From Eledone cirrhosa (Eukaryota): a stretch of 64,000 nt of DNA. The stretch covers positions 242,916,001 to 242,980,000 of the forward strand of contig OZ024743.1 of assembly GCA_964016885.1 (NCBI GenBank). The letters are read 5' to 3'. Below are positions 8,596-20,748 of this stretch, one piece after another. The translations under genes and the position numbers were made by a program. The notes below the pieces were generated by a model that saw only the letters and a program-made list of their open reading frames with translations, did not search any database and was not told the origin of the DNA. The number at the start of each line of letters is the position of its first letter. Position 1 is the first letter of the stretch.

Positions 8596-9336
8596 TATAC
8601 ACACACACATATATATATATATACACAGACGTATGTATACATATATATATATGTGTGCGTGTGAGGGTGTGTATATAATATATATATTTACATATATATA
8701 AGGAGAAAAATAGAATAATAAAGATGAATAAAGAAAAGTGTGAGAAAGGGAGGAAGGAGAGAAGGAGAGCGTAGAGAATAGAGGTAGAAAGGAAGGAGTA
8801 TACGATAGGGGGAAGGGTGTAAGGGAGAGTAGAAAGGAGTGTAACGGAGGGGAGAAAGGAAAAGAAGGTTAGAGGAGATAGTAGGAAGGGGTGTAAGGAA
8901 GTGGAGAAGGGTGTAGGAGAGAGTAGAAAGGAAGGAGGAGAAAAAAGGATGGAATGAAGGAAGAAAGATGAGAAGAAATGAAAGAAAATAGAAGGGGGAA
9001 AATGAAAGGGGAGAGAGCAAAGTAAGAAGGGGTGCATATACATTATATATATGTGTGTGCTGGAATCCGTCAGTTCCGACGATGAGTGTTACGGTTAATT
9101 TGACCAACGGAACAACCAGCTCATGAAATTAGCATGTAAGTGACCAAGCATTCCAAACATGAGCACGATTAACGTAGTTCTCAGGGAGATTTAGTGTGAC
9201 ACAGGGCTGGCAATTTTAATGACAAGTACAATTTTGTCTGAGTTGCTCTCAAAAGTGTTAAATGAACCCATTGACTGTGTATATATATATATATATATAA
9301 TATATAAGATCAAAAGATGGTTAAAAGAGTTCCAAG

Positions 9337-9404
9337 TATTTTATTATGCGCATTTCAAAAACAAATATCATGGGATGATATCTGCGTTCTCATCAGATAA
9401 AATA
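9337..9404 (-). ncRNA. Type I hammerhead ribozyme (PLE left arm)
   Basis: Minus strand: UAUUUUAU-CUGAUGA-stem II (GAUAUCAU ccc AUGAUAUU)-GAAA-UGCGCA-UA-AUAAAAUA. The core is intact, stem I is 8 bp and stem III is palindromic. Confidence 0.85.
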
Positions 9405-10634
9405 GGGAGACGTGATATGAAGCTTAAAAAACACTTGTGAGCAGTGAAGTTTTAAATCAACATATGAAAAATAAATTAAGATGGATGTATGAGATTGGGA
9501 AAAAGTGAGGGGGGAAGTAAGGAAGAGGAAGAAATAAGAGTAAAGGATGGTGGGGGAGGAGTATAAGAAGGAAGGATGAGAGAAGAGGAGAAATCGGTGA
9601 TAGAGAGAGAGAGATAGCCTTTACAACTGAGAAAATATTGTCTCACAGAGAGAAATTAAAAAGCCGTTGGAAGATAATAGATAATTTAAAAGATTTTGAA
9701 ATTAAAAGTTAATGAGGTTTATGCATGAAGAAAAAGGAATTAAGAATAGTATTAAATTAAGGTTTGTATATTGAAGGGTTTAATAATATGTGCGAAGAAA
9801 AGAATTTATTAATATGTATTATTAAAATAAAAATATTAATGATATTAAGGATATAATGTGAAAAGAAGGAGAGGAATAGATGAGTTATGAATTTAGGGGC
9901 ATTTGTTAGGGTTTAAGTTTGTTTTTATGTATTGTAATATGTATACGTAAATAGTATGTTTAAAATGAGTGTAGAAGGAGAGAAGAAAAAAGAATGTTTA
10001 AGGAAGAAAATATCTAACATCAAAAAGTATATATGTTTACGAAATATTTTCTAATGGTAATATTATAATATATTAAAAAGAAATTAGTTAGGGTTTAAGT
10101 TTGTTTTTATGTATTGTAATATGTAAAAGTAAAAGTAAGTAGTAGGTTTAAAACGAGCATGAAAGGATAGAAGAGATAAGAAAAATTTAAGGAAGAAAAA
10201 AATCTAACGTCAAAAAGTTTATGTTTACGAAGGACTTCTAATGGTAATATTATAATGTATTAAAAAAATAGTTTTTATGGCCAATAATATGAGGAAAGAT
10301 GGAAGAATGGATAATGTTGTAGTGAGTAATAATATGAATTGAGAAGTAGTTGGGAAGAAAAAGTACAGATTAGAGATTAGAAATTAAAAAAGAAAAAAGG
10401 AAGAAAGGAAAATGATAAAGAAGAATGACATAGAATGAGTAAATTGTATTATATAATATATAATACTGAAATAAGGTAGAAAGATGGGTATATTTGTAAA
10501 AGATATATAAGCCTTTGAGAAAAGGATTTTAAACTAGTAAGGTATTGAGATATTAGCTGTATACTTTATGGAATGTTTTATGGGATTTATGCAAGCAGAG
10601 CGAAAATAAATCTGTGCGTCTATTTATTATAGAA

Positions 10635-11716
10635 CTAGCAGAGGTACCCGGCGTTGCTCGGGTATTAAATAGCAGTTGTGTATACCATTTATGTCAATAC
10701 TTCAGTGCTACTTCGAAAACTATACTTTTACAAAATCATCGGCTTTTTCCAAAAGAGGATTCCTGCCCCCAGGGGTCCCCTACTCAATATGTGCCAATTC
10801 TGAGAGTTCACATTCATCTGTAGGACAAACGTAGCCCATGTGTCAAGTTTTGTGAAAATCGGTTGCGAACTCTAGAAGTTATGACGTTTTGTTGCATTGC
10901 ACTGCAGTTCTTCAGTCGACTCCAAGGAAGTGGTTAAAGGGGGTCATCTGCTGGGAGGCCCTGTAATCAATATCTGTAAAAATGAAAGTGCCCATGACCA
11001 TCCGGAGTACATAAGTAACCTATGTCTTAAGTTTGGTGAAAATACTGTAGAAATGCATAAGGTTTATACACGCGCGCGCTCGTGTGTGTGTGTGTTTGTG
11101 TGTGTGTGGGGGGCATGTATTTGTGTGTGCGTCTGTATGTGTATGTCCGTCGGGGCATGCGTAACGTATGTACTGGCCTAAATCTTCACTATTTACTTTT
11201 ACTATTTTAATAACCTCTGTCATTTTCGTTTTCAATTTTATTTACATCGTTCTTAAACTCCGGCGCTGGAAATCATTCTGTTATGTTAAATAGAATATTA
11301 GTCTAACGACTCCATTTATACCATAAACTTGGTCTTGTCTTTGCATGAAATTGTTCTTCTCGCTCCACATAACGACGTATTATCCTCGCTTTTTTTCCCG
11401 TTCATTGCCAGGGAACGTCTTCACGGACCAAAACATCGTCTTGCTGTTTTCGTTCGGTTGGAACGTTTCTCGGAATATTGACTTCTGCGTTCACAGATTA
11501 CACTCAGTTCAATTTGAATGGGAAATTCCTGTTTCATCGATTTTCTCCGTAACCATGGAAGCCTGTACCCTAAAAGTCGACCCAACGCCTCCTCGGGTCA
11601 TTCTGCATAACTGTGTAAATTTTCGCTGCATTCCACCAAGCCGTTTCGACGTTTATCCGACTATACCTACTTACTTAAATATACAACGTCCGACCACTTC
11701 CACTTTATATAGTAGA
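10635..11716 (-). mobile_element. Non-autonomous Helitron (1082 bp)
   Basis: Minus strand starts 5'-TC and ends CTAG-3', with the subterminal hairpin ACCCG-AGCAACGC-CGGGT. It sits between A and T with no TSD. The empty site is present in the right PLE arm. Confidence 0.93.
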
Positions 11717-12400
11717 TTGAAATTAGATATAATGGTAAATTTCTCGGCTAGGCAGAGATTACATGTTCTGGATAGGGAAGAATTCAGGTAAGGAAAGGCG
11801 GAACAAACCTTCCTCCAAGATATGTTATAGTTAATATTTTTGTTTTTCAAGGACCATATGAGTTCCGAGAGTGCCGTGTTAGTTCTTTTAAGTTGGTATC
11901 TAAAAGACGATTTGTGATTATAAAATCTAGCTTTAAAGGAAGTGGAAGTGGAACCGAAATAGGTAAAAGAATTAGTATCAGTTATAACCTTACATTCATA
12001 GACCAAGTTTTTATCAAGACAATGGTTATTAAGAGGACATTTAGTTTTAATAGGGCAATTACAATTACGTTTAGAGAAATTAACAGAGTTATTAACAAGT
12101 GACCTAGTATTCTTTATAGAAGGAATTGGATTGGAGAAGTTATTTACGATAGGAACAATAGTTTCCTGATTTAGATTGGTATTATGAACATTCAACGAAG
12201 TTACGTTTGACGTCGTATTTAAATTTACAGAATCTAGCCTAGAGTTAACAATGACGTCGGGTATACTACTGCTATTATTATGACGCTCAGTGTTGGAAGG
12301 ATGTAATTTATTATTTAATATTATATTTTATTGTTGTGTTTAGAGATAATGTTAGAGATGTTGGAAGTGGTGGAATAAGAAAATTTAATTCTATGTTTTA
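11717..12400 (-). pseudogene. Penelope GIY-YIG endonuclease and linker region (disrupted)
   Basis: KHRIKFSYSTTSNISNIISKHNNKI linker, then a frameshift, then CNCPIKTKCPL..NLVYECKV..YFGST..FKARFYNHKSSF..TALSELIW..CNLCLAEK. The C-terminus resumes left of the Helitron (10634 to ~10549). Confidence 0.9.
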
Positions 12401-13688
12401 CAATTCTTCCCTATCAAGAACATGTAATCTCTGCCTAGCCGAGAAATTTACAATTATATCTAATTTCAATTCTATAATAAATAGACGCACAGATTTATTT
12501 TCGCTCTGCTTGCATAAATCCCATAAAACATTCCATAAAGTATACAGCTAATATCTCAATACCTTACTAGTTTAAAATCCTTTTCTCAAAGGCTTATATA
12601 TCTTTTACAAATATACCCATCTTTCTACCTTATTTCAGTATTATATATTATATAATACAATTTACTCATTCTATGTCATTCTTCTTTATCATTTTCCTTT
12701 CTTCCTTTTTTCTTTTTTAATTTCTAATCTCTAATCTGTACTTTTTCTTCCCAACTACTTCTCAATTCATATTATTACTCACTACAACATTATCCATTCT
12801 TCCATCTTTCCTCATATTATTGGCCATAAAAACTATTTTTTTAATACATTATAATATTACCATTAGAAGTCCTTCGTAAACATAAACTTTTTGACGTTAG
12901 ATTTTTTTCTTCCTTAAATTTTTCTTATCTCTTCTATCCTTTCATGCTCGTTTTAAACCTACTACTTACTTTTACTTTTACATATTACAATACATAAAAA
13001 CAAACTTAAACCCTAACTAATTTCTTTTTAATATATTATAATATTACCATTAGAAAATATTTCGTAAACATATATACTTTTTGATGTTAGATATTTTCTT
13101 CCTTAAACATTCTTTTTTCTTCTCTCCTTCTACACTCATTTTAAACATACTATTTACGTATACATATTACAATACATAAAAACAAACTTAAACCCTAACA
13201 AATGCCCCTAAATTCATAACTCATCTATTCCTCTCCTTCTTTTCACATTATATCCTTAATATCATTAATATTTTTATTTTAATAATACATATTAATAAAT
13301 TCTTTTCTTCGCACATATTATTAAACCCTTCAATATACAAACCTTAATTTAATACTATTCTTAATTCCTTTTTCTTCATGCATAAACCTCATTAACTTTT
13401 AATTTCAAAATCTTTTAAATTATCTATTATCTTCCAACGGCTTTTTAATTTCTCAGTTGTAAAGGTTATCTCTCTCTCTCTATCACCCATTTCTCCTCCT
13501 CTCTCATCCTTCTTTCTTATACTCCTCCCCCACCATCCTTTACTCTTATTTCTTCCTCTTCCTTACCTTTTCCACCCCACCCCCTCACCTTTTCCCAATC
13601 TCATACATCCATCTTGATTTATTTTTCATATGTTGATTTAACACTTCACTGTTCACAAGTGTTTTTTAAGCTTCATATCATGTCTCCC

Positions 13689-13759
13689 TATTTTATCTGA
13701 TGAGAACGCAGATATCATCCCATGATGATATTTGTTTTTGAAATGCGCATAATAAAATA
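13689..13759 (+). ncRNA. Type I hammerhead ribozyme (PLE right arm)
   Basis: TATTTTAT-CTGATGA-stem II-GAAA-TGCGCA-TA-ATAAAATA. Predicted cleavage is after A13751. Confidence 0.87.
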
Positions 13760-13879
13760 CTTGGAACTCTTTTAACCATCTTTTGATCTTATATTATTTA
13801 TACTCCAGTCCTACAAACTGCAGAGTGCTACTTATCCGATATTTGCATTGCTTTATTGTGCTACAATAAAACTCACCTC

Positions 13880-13991
<112 letters not shown>

Positions 13992-16503: not shown

Positions 16504-16784
16504 TCATATATATATATCTATACAGATATATACATATACATTCATATATACATATATATCCATATATATTTTTATATACACACACATATAAGTACATATA
16601 TATTTGCTTGTTAGTCTGTAAATGCATTTATATTTATCTGAGGAATAGAGGGGGAGAGAGCCTTTTCTTAGGATGGGGATGGGGATGGTGAGGGGTGTCG
16701 TTCTTCCCTTTTTACCAAAGAAATAAATCACATGGCTCCCCAACAGAAATTAATTATTTATCTACAGCATCAATGCAAAACTAT

Positions 16785-17185
16785 CATTACCATTACAATC
16801 ACAACCACAACCATCATCATCATCATCACAACCACCACCATCATCACCATCACAATCACCATCATCACCATCACAATCACCATCATTACCACCACAATCA
16901 CCATCATCATCATCATTACCATCATTATTACTATCGCCCTTTACGGTCTGAGTTCAAATCCCGCCGAGGTTAACTTTGCCTTTCATCCTTACGAGGTCGA
17001 TAAAATAAAGTACCAGTAATGCACTGGGATGATTGCTGGCCTTGTGCCAAAAGTAGAAATAATTATTACTATCATTACCATAATCATTACCATCACCATC
17101 ACCACCACCATCACCATCACCATCACCACCATCATCACAACCATCACAATCAAAGCCATCACCACCATAATCACCACCAATGATA
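16785..17185 (+). repeat. (CAT/CAC)n trinucleotide tract interrupted by a 5'-truncated Nin/Deu-type SINE (~16935-17060)
   Basis: Direct reading. The SINE part matches 48510-48695. Confidence 0.8.
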
Positions 17186-18192
17186 GCAATAAAATGTTGA
17201 CAAGAAAAAGTCTCCAACATCAAGTAAATTCACCTTAGGTAATTCAAAGTACCCCAGATTATTTTGACACAGAAACAGCAAAAAATACCTTCTGCCTGTT
17301 TTTTTATAGTTGTATAATAGAAATAGACCAACTTAGACTTCTCAATCTCATTATTTCAGCCACCTTTCATTGAATAGTGGCATCATCCTCTTCATCCAGA
17401 GATACTTGATGAAGAGGAAGAGAAGGCTTGGCATAGCGATGAAAGGTCCTACCCTCAAACCATAACCATCACACAACTTCTTTTGCCATAAGCCACCAGA
17501 GAAAAACTAATCAGCCTTTGTTATTAAAGGAAGATGGTGGGTTGATCACCATGATTCAGCTGATAATTGGATCAACCCTACACATGATAGCATGTTTGAT
17601 ACAACAATATAAGTACACAGAACAGTCGATATATCGACAGTCGATCGACAAGATCCCAGATCTCGTGCACTTAACAAGGGGGTGGAGCTCGTCATATCAG
17701 ACCAAGCAAACAATGTTTCCATTGGTCTTTCTAATTGTTAATACTATCTATCAGTCGCAACTCCATGCAGAAGGAGCAATGTGAAATAAAGTGTCTTGCT
17801 CAAGGACATAACACATCACCCGGTCTGGGAATCTAAGTCCCAACCTCATGATTGTGAATCCAATTCTCTAACCACTCAGCCACATGCCTTCGTATATATG
17901 AGTTTAAATACTCTGCATGTCTTCTCCCAGCTGTTATTCTTGGGTCTACAGGTACATACTGAGAGTAAACACATTCCCACAGGTCGTGCTCACCATTTTC
18001 ACCTACCTTTTGATAAATTAACTGAAGGGCAGCACCCTCACCCCCACAGCTACTTTCCTCTCCATGTGGAACTTGAAAACATCAATGAAAGTATCTGTCT
18101 CCGGTCTTTTGAGGCACATTCTTTTACTGGTTTCACTCGTTAGACAGAGACTATGGTGGGGCACAGCCGTAAATTCAATCATATCATTCTAA

Positions 18193-18403: not shown

Positions 18404-18699
18404 TTAATATGTATTTTTTATGTTTGGGACTTATATTATCACTCTCTTTTTGTCAAACCACTATGGGTTAAAGACCCACACACACACACACACTAAAGTT
18501 TCTGTGAACCAAATTTTACTCACAAAACGTTGGTCAATCTAAGCCAATATAAGACTCTTGTCCAAGGTGTCACATAGTGGGACTGAATCTGAACTCACTT
18601 GACTGCAAAACAAACTCCTTCACCATTCAGTTATGTTTGTACCTGTTACACAGTGACAGAAAACAACACATTTGTTGGAAAGGAGTATACAATTGATTG

Positions 18700-20748
18700 G
18701 ATACTCCAGTATATGGAGTGGAGACTCTAGTATGTTGAGTGGAGACTAGTATATTGAGTAAATACTCTACCATGTTGAATGGACACTCTAGTATATTGAG
18801 TGGACACTAGCTTATTAAAGGGACACTCCATTATATAGAGTGGACACTCTAGCATATTGAGTGGATGCTCTAGTATATTGAGTGGACACTCTAGTATATT
18901 GAGTGGACACTCTAGTATATTGAGTGGACACTCTAGTATATTGAGTGGACACTCTAGTATATTGAATGAACACTCTAGTATATTGAGTGGACACTAGTAT
19001 ATTGAGTGGACACTCTAGTATATTGAATGAACACTCTAGTATATTGAGTGGACACTCTAGTATATTGAGTGGACACTCTAGTATATTGAGTGGACACTCT
19101 AGTATATTGAATGAACACTCTAGTATATTGAGTGGACACTAGTATATTGAGTGGACACTCTAGTATATTGAGTGGACACTCTAGTATATTGAGTGAACAC
19201 CCTAGTATATTGAGTGGACACTCTAGTATATTGAATGAACACTCTAGTATATTGAGTGGACACTAGTATATTGAGTGGACACTCTAGTATATTGAATGAA
19301 CACTCTAGTATATTGAGTGGACACTCTAGTATATTGAGTGGACACTCTAGTATATTGAGTGGACACTCTAGTATATTGAGTGGACACTCTAGTATATTGA
19401 ATGAACACTCTAGTATATTGAGTGGACACTCTAGTATATTGAGTGGACATTCTAGTATATTGAGTGGACACTCTAGTATATTGAATGAACACTCTAGTAT
19501 ATTGAGTTAACACTCTAGTATATTGAGTGGGCACTCTAGTATATTGAGTGGACACTCTAGTATATTGAATGAACACTCTAGTATATTGAGTGGACACTCT
19601 AGTATATTGAGTGGACATTCTAGTATATTGAATGAATACTCTAGTATATTGAGTGGACACTCTAGTATATTGTGTGGACACTCTAGTATATTGAATGAAC
19701 ACTCTAGTATATTGAGTGGACACTCTAGTATATTGAATGAACACTCTAGTATATTGAGTGGACACTCTAGTATATTGAGTGGACACTCTAGTATATTGAG
19801 TGGACACTAGTATATTGAATGAACACTCTAGTATATTGAGTGGACACTCTAGTATATTGAGTGGACACTAGTATATTGAATGAACACTCTAGTATATTGA
19901 GTGGACACTCTAGTATATTGAGTGGACACTCTAGTATATTGAATGAACACTCTAGTATATTGTGTGGACACTCTAGTATATTGAATGAACACTCTAGTAT
20001 ATTGAGTGGACACTCTAGTATATTGAATGAACACTCTAGTATATTGAGTGGACACTCTAGTATATTGAGTGGACACTCTAGTATATTGAGTGGACACTAG
20101 TATATTGAGTGGACACTCTAGTATATTGAGTGGACACTAGTATATTGAGTGGACACTCTAATATATTGAGTGGACACTCTAGTATAATTGAGTGGACACT
20201 AGTATATTGAATGAACACTCTAGTATAGTGAGTGGACACTAGTATATTGAATGAACACTCTAGTATATTGAGTGGACACTCTAGTATATTGAATGAACAC
20301 TCTAGTATATTGAGTGGACACTCTAGTATATTGTGTGGACACTCTAGTATATTGAATGAACACTCTAGTATATTGAGTGGGCACTCTAGTATATTGAGTG
20401 GACACTCTAGTATATTGAATGAACACTCTAGTATATTGAGTGGACACTCTAGTATATTGAGTGGACACTCTAGTATATTGAATGAACACTCTAGTATATT
20501 GAATGGACACTCTAGTATATTGAGTGGACACTCTAGTATATTGAGTGAACACTCTAGTATATTGAGTGGACACTCTAGTATATTGAGTGGACACTAGTAT
20601 ATTGAATGAACACTCTAGTATATTGAGTGGACACTCTAGTATATTGAGTGGACACTCTAGTATATTGAATGAACACTCTAGTATATTGAGTGGACACTCT
20701 AGTATATCGAGTGGACACTAGTATATTGAGTGGACACTCTAGTATATT
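18700..20748 (+). repeat. 21-bp minisatellite, ~100 units with 19-bp variants
   Basis: Unit AGTATATTGAGTGGACACTCT with variant AGTATATTGAATGAACACTCT. Units are diverged at the left edge. Confidence 0.98.

What the first reader, a model, noticed from the sequence alone, without database searches (positions are those of the whole stretch)
13689..13759. Hammerhead with loopless palindromic stem III (AUGCGCAU) and an unusually long stem II
Seen: perfect CUGAUGA/GAAA core, 8-bp all-AU stem I, AUA cleavage triplet and self-complementary stem III. Stem II differs by a 3-nt indel between the two arms. Established: minimal PLE hammerheads with palindromic stem III are proposed to cleave as dimers. Inference: activity needs two sense copies (tandem pLTRs or in trans), so it may be weak as a monomer in this inverted configuration.
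Basis: partly seen in the sequence, partly recalled or inferred. Interest (0 to 1): 0.7.

Follow-up and report, generated by a model that had tools for sequence, protein, structure and literature searches.

The report
Hydra retrotransposon hammerhead, dimer type
This is a real hammerhead ribozyme motif at the end of a broken copy of a known kind of jumping gene, one of about 18,000 such copies in this genome; it likely cuts only when two RNA copies pair up, so it is probably silent at this spot.

Summary
The hammerhead is real and as described. It ends the + arm of a head-to-head pair of 5'-truncated Penelope-like elements with Hydra-clade protein motifs. About 18,000 copies of this family carry the same long stem II (control 0); the 3-nt indel is a private deletion in the left arm's loop and leaves the stem intact. 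Across 21 sister motifs stems I, II and III covary, and the central stem III pair stays self-complementary (CG, UA, UG, AU), which fits a dimer better than a monomer. Inserted copies decay neutrally in the core, so selection acted on parent elements, not here. Long stem II is ordinary in this genome. The conserved oddity is a C·Y mismatch at pair 4 of stem II (108,194 motifs against 7,162). Nearly all copies span the cut site, so most templates were likely uncut, but 5' ends are about 3-fold enriched exactly at the cut. The scan noted the mismatch and a cut-site excess before on other DNA of this genome. Cleavage is untested. Verdict: new member of a known kind.

The parts
13689..13759 (+). 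Type I hammerhead motif; predicted cut after A13751
13704..13739 (+). Stem II: 3 bp, C13707·U13736 mismatch (positions 10.4/11.4), 12 bp, 4-nt loop
13743..13750 (+). Palindromic stem III (AUGCGCAU); predicted 8-bp duplex between two molecules
12402..13880 (+). Right arm: 5'-truncated PLE copy (last ~50 codons of the endonuclease, 3' UTR, hammerhead, tail)
13803..13880 (+). One-sided tail; equals the start of the 5' leader of the next unit in a tandem copy
11716..12398 (-). Left arm, 5' part: linker and GIY-YIG endonuclease (residues ~464-681 of a near full-length relative), with a frameshift near 12325; no RT
10635..11716 (-). Helitron-like insertion in the left arm (5' TC, 3' hairpin and CTAG, between A and T); repeated in the genome
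   Evidence: the Helitron end features are recalled knowledge
9292..10634 (-). Left arm, 3' part: 3' UTR and hammerhead, ending at a TA microsatellite
9337..9404 (-). Second hammerhead copy with a private 3-nt deletion at the stem II loop
13881..13988 (.). (CT)n/(TA)n microsatellite at the right insertion edge
9279..9300 (.). (TA)n microsatellite at the left insertion edge

Best explanation
This is a type I hammerhead motif at the 3' end of a truncated, head-to-head pair of Penelope-like retrotransposon copies with Hydra-clade protein motifs, and it is predicted to cut after A13751 only when the palindromic stem III of two sense RNAs pairs, so it is likely inactive at this locus. Shown: the fold, the element anatomy, the copy numbers, covariation of all three stems across sister families, neutral decay of inserted copies, two fixed 3' ends about 50 and 130 nt past the cut, and a ~3-fold excess of 5' ends at the cut. 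Inferred: selection acted on the RNA of parent elements; the partner comes from a tandem unit 3.7 kb away or, more often, from another transcript; cutting is slow or gated (probably helped by the element's protein), because reverse transcription that starts downstream of the cut had to read through it to make almost every genomic copy. At this locus a transcript carries only one sense copy, and read-through of both arms would bury it in a 1.3-kb duplex.
For: Anatomy: inverted arms, one-sided tail, TA flanks, matching Fig. 2 text of PMC8557442. Clade motifs in near full-length relatives: DKT, CxCX5C, CxxC-E...N-CxH, no CCHH. Covariation in 21 hand-picked representatives: 87% of cells paired, 15 of 20 pairs with two-sided change, 0 of 500 shuffles as high on cells paired, slid controls 30-56%; central stem III pair standard in 20 of 21 (UA 8, UG 8, CG 3, AU 1), next pair AU 15 / GC 5. 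Monomer stem III probability 0.0009; dimer MFE -48.7 against -37.8 kcal/mol for two monomers. 58 of the first 100 family copies sit in divergent pairs; 12 have a same-strand copy within 6 kb. 3' ends at 13880 (37 of 75) or 13802 (33 of 75). 16,098 exact copies read through the cut site; estimated 87 begin at it against 24-31 at four neighbouring positions.
Against: No cleavage or RNA data. Nearest-neighbour energies ignore tertiary contacts, and hammerheads with 2 bp plus a tetraloop in stem III cut well alone in corals (PMC7229834). Dimer energies in sister families are weak (AUAUGUAU duplex -2.2, AUAUAUAU -3.2 kcal/mol against -10.5 here). Only 2 of 20 long-ORF loci had an upstream same-strand pLTR, and in L066 that upstream hammerhead is broken in the core, so cis dimers look rare. 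Shuffle control (a) ignores relatedness, and the search patterns fixed pairs 15.1-16.1, 15.2-16.2 and part of stem I. The cut-site excess rests on samples of 30-50 loci per position; 4 of its 19 cases are fold-backs at a TTTT|ATAAAA palindrome, two of them one locus, and position 13753 was not tested.
Confidence: 0.7

Rival explanations
1. The motif cuts well as a monomer: 2-3 bp of stem III are enough because the conserved C·Y site in stem II docks on stem I and takes the place of the usual loop 1-loop 2 contact.
For: C·Y at 10.4/11.4 in 134 of 140 motifs with an 8-nt stem III, unpaired in 21 of 21 representatives; U at position 1.7 in 125 of 140; invertebrate hammerheads with 2 bp plus tetraloop cut efficiently alone (PMC7229834).
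Against: The central two letters of stem III covary as a pair, which one molecule cannot form; monomer stem III probability 0.0009; more than 99% of sampled-pattern copies span the cut site, hard to square with fast co-transcriptional cutting.
Confidence: 0.15
2. The fold rarely or never cuts in vivo and is kept mainly as a binding or positioning structure for the RT-endonuclease protein near the two reverse-transcription start sites.
For: In the anole PLE, ribozyme mutants did not affect insertion in vitro and no RNA reads ended at the cut (PMC11167929); 3' ends lie at fixed distances past the motif; nearly all copies came from templates continuous across the cut.
Against: All catalytic core letters are invariant across 21 divergent representatives (partly by pattern); the ~3-fold excess of 5' ends at the predicted cut.
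Confidence: 0.12
3. The motif at this locus has been co-opted by the host, or is a chance or assembly product.
For: The arms are 100% identical over 985 bp, which polishing of an assembly could produce; no laid contig bridged the inversion junction (uninformative).
Against: 17,959 family copies; the motif equals the family majority; no excess conservation among inserted copies; the hammerheads lie in the part where the arms differ.
Confidence: 0.03

Closest known systems
Hydra-clade PLEs and their hammerheads (Craig et al. 2021, PMC8557442; abstract, passages, section 11, supplement parts 2-3 and search hits seen), e.g. Hydra-1_Obim
   Same: C-terminal GIY-YIG, DKT, CxCX5C linker, CxxC and CxH, no CCHH, (TA)n targets, inverted 5'-truncated arm, one-sided tail, type I hammerhead near the 3' end with a self-complementary stem III of 3-4 bp and a 1-3 nt loop.
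   Different: Unit about 3.7 kb (published ones mostly under 3 kb); RWI for RWK; stem II 15 bp against about 3-8 bp in File S2; fixed C·Y mismatch at pair 4, which I do not see in the File S2 Hydra rows; U15.2-A16.2 and AUA triplet where those rows have C15.2-G16.2; tail 78 nt against 30-40.
PLE hammerheads with a small palindromic helix III (Cervera and De la Pena 2014, PMC4209133; parts 1-2 of 4 read)
   Same: In pLTRs; larger than usual helix II; palindromic helix III; opposite-strand pairs 100-700 bp apart; proposed dimers with low in vitro activity.
   Different: Not the strict minimal form (helix III is present); no extra base between 9 and 10.1; no conserved G10.1-C11.1 (G·U here; A-U, G·U, U·U, G-C in relatives).
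Axolotl and newt retrozyme hammerheads (PMC7229834; passages and section 15 read)
   Same: Weak helix III, more efficient as dimers; 126,247 motifs in axolotl, similar to the 108,194 pattern matches here.
   Different: Those are short tandem non-coding repeats with canonical loop 1-loop 2 contacts; this is the end of a protein-coding element, mostly in inverted pairs.
Poseidon PLE of the green anole (Frangieh et al. 2024, PMC11167929; passages read)
   Same: Two fixed 3' ends defining a tail downstream of the hammerhead; templates continuous across the cut.
   Different: Another clade; its ribozyme overlaps the ORF start, here the ORF starts about 300 nt past the cut; protein assistance is not tested here.

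Membership tests
Type I hammerhead ribozyme | Core CUGANGA and GAAA with NUH triplet | tested here: met
Type I hammerhead ribozyme | Three helices, open ends in stem I, supported by covariation | tested here: met
Type I hammerhead ribozyme | Match to an Rfam hammerhead model | tested here: not met
   no model reached threshold, not a defining failure for long-stem variants (inference)
Type I hammerhead ribozyme | Self-cleavage after H17 | not testable with these tools
   indirect only: ~3-fold excess of 5' ends at 13752
Canonical type I hammerhead | 6-bp stem I and 4-bp stem II with loop 1-loop 2 contacts, G10.1-C11.1 | tested here: not met
   8-bp stem I, 15-bp stem II, G·U at 10.1; definition from PMC4209133
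Minimal PLE hammerhead (strict, no helix III) | No helix III or loop 3; extra base between 9 and 10.1 | tested here: not met
   8-nt stem III present, no extra base
Dimer-type PLE hammerhead | Short palindromic helix III, located in a pLTR | tested here: met
Dimer-type PLE hammerhead | Faster cutting as dimer than as monomer | not testable with these tools
   energies only
Hydra-clade PLE | Single ORF, RT then C-terminal GIY-YIG, DKT motif | tested here: met
   L061, L066 translations read by eye; Pfam and PDB gave no hit
Hydra-clade PLE | CxCX5C linker, CxxC and CxH around E and N, no CCHH | tested here: met
Hydra-clade PLE | RWK motif | tested here: inconclusive
   RRLRWIAFF here, RRMRWKAFF in Hydra-1_Obim
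Hydra-clade PLE | Insertion in (TA)n | tested here: met
Hydra-clade PLE | Generally shorter than 3 kb | tested here: not met
   about 3.7 kb between the two hammerheads of L066; a tendency, not a defining trait
Hydra-clade PLE | Placement in the RT phylogeny | not tested
   published sequences were seen only as cut text
Naiad PLE | N-terminal endonuclease, no canonical hammerhead | tested here: not met
Non-LTR retrozyme | Short non-coding tandem repeats | tested here: not met

The most novel reading that the evidence does not exclude
This lineage of about 100,000 hammerheads is a distinct gated subtype: the invariant C10.4·Y11.4 mismatch in stem II is a docking or protein-binding site through which the element's own RT-endonuclease switches on cutting of a trans dimer late in the cycle. 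Most cDNA is made from uncut RNA, and the small excess of copies that begin exactly at the cut is the genomic footprint of cleavage in living cells.
Probability: 0.2. Interest if true: 0.65.

Novelty: new member of a known kind. Interest (0 to 1): 0.3.

Why it matters
What PLE hammerheads do is still open (stated in PMC8557442 and PMC11167929). This locus itself is a dead fragment, but its family offers a clean test set: a strong 8-bp palindrome with natural compensated variants for the dimer model, one invariant mismatch to mutate, and thousands of dated insertions whose ends record whether the template RNA was cut.

Tried and rejected
Rfam: no hammerhead match. Pfam and PDB sequence searches on the ORF fragment and on near full-length relatives: nothing. 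No RNA holder listed. Contigs of four runs did not bridge the inversion junction; uninformative. A pattern for purine-closed stem I gave 1,945 matches against 3,013 in the control, so no signal; its 20 loci (L141-L160) were left out. Lunse et al. (RNA Biol 14:1499) could not be read; I saw only its title and the summary in PMC6765202, so it may already describe the stem II mismatch. The supplements of PMC4209133, which hold alignments of PLE hammerheads, were not read and may bear on the same point. Searches for the mismatch in print and for cephalopod PLE hammerheads found only the papers cited. Rejected: Naiad (endonuclease is C-terminal); the 3-nt indel as a functional variant (private, in the loop); long stem II as a defining trait (7-15 pairs among sister families, up to 22 pairs in unrelated ones); hammerhead cutting as the maker of the element's 3' ends (they lie about 50 and 130 nt downstream); record copy number (axolotl has 126,247).

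Full report
Observation. The motif is present as written: 8 A-U pairs in stem I (13689-13696 with 13752-13759), CUGAUGA, a 36-nt stem II, GAAA, the palindrome AUGCGCAU (13743-13750) and the triplet AUA. Stem II folds as 3 bp, a C·U mismatch, 12 bp and a 4-nt loop. A second copy lies on the minus strand at 9404->9337. Rfam does not recognise either.

Surroundings. The two copies end the arms of a 1.33-kb inverted repeat, 9292-10634 and 12470-13802, 96.6% alike. Between them, on the minus strand, lies the 3' part of a GIY-YIG ORF. The left arm starts at 12398 and the right arm at 12402; both are 5'-truncated and lack the RT. A Helitron-like repeat splits the left arm (10635-11716; its end features are recalled knowledge). 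The left arm stops at a TA run; the right arm carries a 78-nt tail to 13880, which in the tandem copy L066 is the start of the leader of the next ORF. This is the layout described for PLEs in PMC8557442.

Family and clade. The window lies in a 3.0-Gb animal genome (an earlier scan note calls it octopod, not tested here). I fetched 20 loci chosen for long open frames among 150 scored endonuclease hits. Their proteins show RWI, DKT, YRDD, CxCX5C, CxxC-E, N-CxH and no CCHH, the Hydra features of section 11 of PMC8557442, apart from RWI for RWK and a longer unit. No tree was built. Of these 20 loci, 12 have an inverted arm at the 5' side and 2 an upstream same-strand pLTR; in L066 that upstream hammerhead has lost two core letters.

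Copy numbers. Family pattern: 17,959 matches, control 0. Wider patterns: 39,433 with a U-rich stem I (control 0); 20,215 with a C-G closing pair (control 51); none above control for purine closing. With stem I free, 108,194 motifs have C at 10.4 and a pyrimidine at 11.4 (control 55) and 7,162 have another letter at 10.4 (control 592); many of those listed look like decayed copies. Axolotl has 126,247 hammerheads, so this is no record.

The indel and the long stem. 94-99% of 77 aligned copies keep the 3 nt, so the left arm is the derived form. It still folds 14 pairs. Sister families have 7-15 pairs in stem II and unrelated families in the same loci up to 22. Published Hydra hammerheads have about 3-8 bp (File S2). 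Long stem II is thus real but variable.

Covariation. My descriptor found 167 distinct motifs in the fetched loci (L141-L160 left out), against 0-1 in shuffles; 140 have an 8-nt stem III and 134 of these have C·C or C·U at 10.4/11.4 (pairs 10.2, 10.3 and 15.2-16.2 were required by the descriptor). In 21 hand-picked representatives, 87% of cells pair, 15 of 20 pairs change on both sides, slid controls give 30-56%, and 10.4/11.4 pairs in 0 of 21. The central two letters of stem III form a standard pair in 20 of 21 (UA, UG, CG and the transversion AU), a pair that can only form between two molecules. The shuffle control ignores relatedness. Among 54 copies in loci picked by the protein, 41 keep an intact core, and private changes are no rarer in the core (13 of 594) than in the flanks (43 of 2392; 20 of 1522). 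Selection therefore acted on parent elements and not on inserted copies (inference).

Monomer or dimer. In the monomer ensemble stem III has probability 0.0009; the best fold of two strands has swapped stems I and the 8-bp stem III duplex, -48.7 against -37.8 kcal/mol. Published tests agree for related motifs: no cutting as monomer and low cutting as dimer (PMC4209133; review PMC6765202; axolotl). Against: hammerheads with 2 bp plus a tetraloop cut well alone when loop contacts exist, and sister palindromes give weak duplexes. Of the first 100 family places, 58 are in divergent pairs and 12 have a same-strand copy within 6 kb, so cis partners are scarce.

What the ends record. In 75 copies, 3' ends fall at 13880 (37) or 13802 (33), about 130 and 50 nt past the cut; in the anole PLE such ends are the two RT start sites, and uncut RNA was the main template (PMC11167929). 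Here 16,098 exact matches run through the cut. Counting matches whose likeness breaks one base upstream gave 230 at 13752 against 141, 122, 157 and 131 at 13750, 13751, 13754 and 13758. Of sampled loci, 19 of 50, 5 of 30, 10 of 40, 6 of 30 and 7 of 30 were true truncations (13752, 13750, 13751, 13754, 13758), giving about 87 against 24-31, ratio 2.9 (95% range 1.7-4.8). Four of the 19 are fold-backs at a short palindrome, two of them one locus, and one is a fold-back at stem III; without these five the estimate is about 64. 13753 was not tested. This is a hint of occasional cutting in vivo, about 0.5% of copies.

Mechanism. Shown: fold, anatomy, covariation, end positions. Inferred: in parent elements two sense RNAs pair through stem III, swap stem I strands and cut after A13751, slowly or with help from the element's protein; most cDNA is made before cutting or from religated RNA. 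At this locus only one sense copy exists per strand and read-through would form a long duplex, so it is probably silent. No RNA run was listed, which says nothing either way.

Novelty. Dimer-type hammerheads in pLTRs, opposite-strand pairs, larger helix II and Hydra elements are all in print. I found no paper on the C·Y mismatch, but could not read Lunse et al. and did not open the supplements of PMC4209133. I reached the mismatch before consulting the scan's notes, which had recorded it and a cut-site excess on other DNA of this genome. Verdict: new member of a known kind, interest 0.3.

Noticed in passing
window 12470-13453 against 9650-10634: The arms are identical over 984 compared columns and share 7 letters rare in other copies, while they differ on both sides (2 of 68 columns; 23 of 349). 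Other inverted pairs are mostly 92-97% alike. Gene conversion between arms, or assembly polishing.
   Followed up: partly
window ~13617-13636: Many short family copies start here (19 of 75; 17 of 29), about 60 nt before the hammerhead: possibly the 5' end of the template RNA.
   Followed up: partly
window 10635-11716 (-): Helitron-like insert; its 3' end has 1,666 candidate matches, the top 40 98-100% identical, so it is young.
   Followed up: partly
L066:8580-8675, L070:8465-8560, L131:410-507, L125:1780-1882, L168:3987-4088: Unrelated type I hammerheads with stem II of 50-59 nt and palindromes such as ACUAAUUAGU, ACCGAUCGGU and ACCAUGGU.
   Followed up: no
L073:7329-9617; L068:8628-9098; L077:6619-7535: A short hammerhead family (stem III ACUAGU) in same-strand repeats about 420 or 840-860 nt apart; looks like a retrozyme.
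   Followed up: no
window 12838-13203: A ~185-bp tandem duplication (83% alike) inside the 3' UTR, shared by family copies.
   Followed up: no
window 18638-19900 and 16750-17215: Two 21-bp-period tandem arrays.
   Followed up: no
G000: The endonuclease fragment has 55,228 first-look candidates; Hydra-type elements appear to be a major repeat class in this genome.
   Followed up: no
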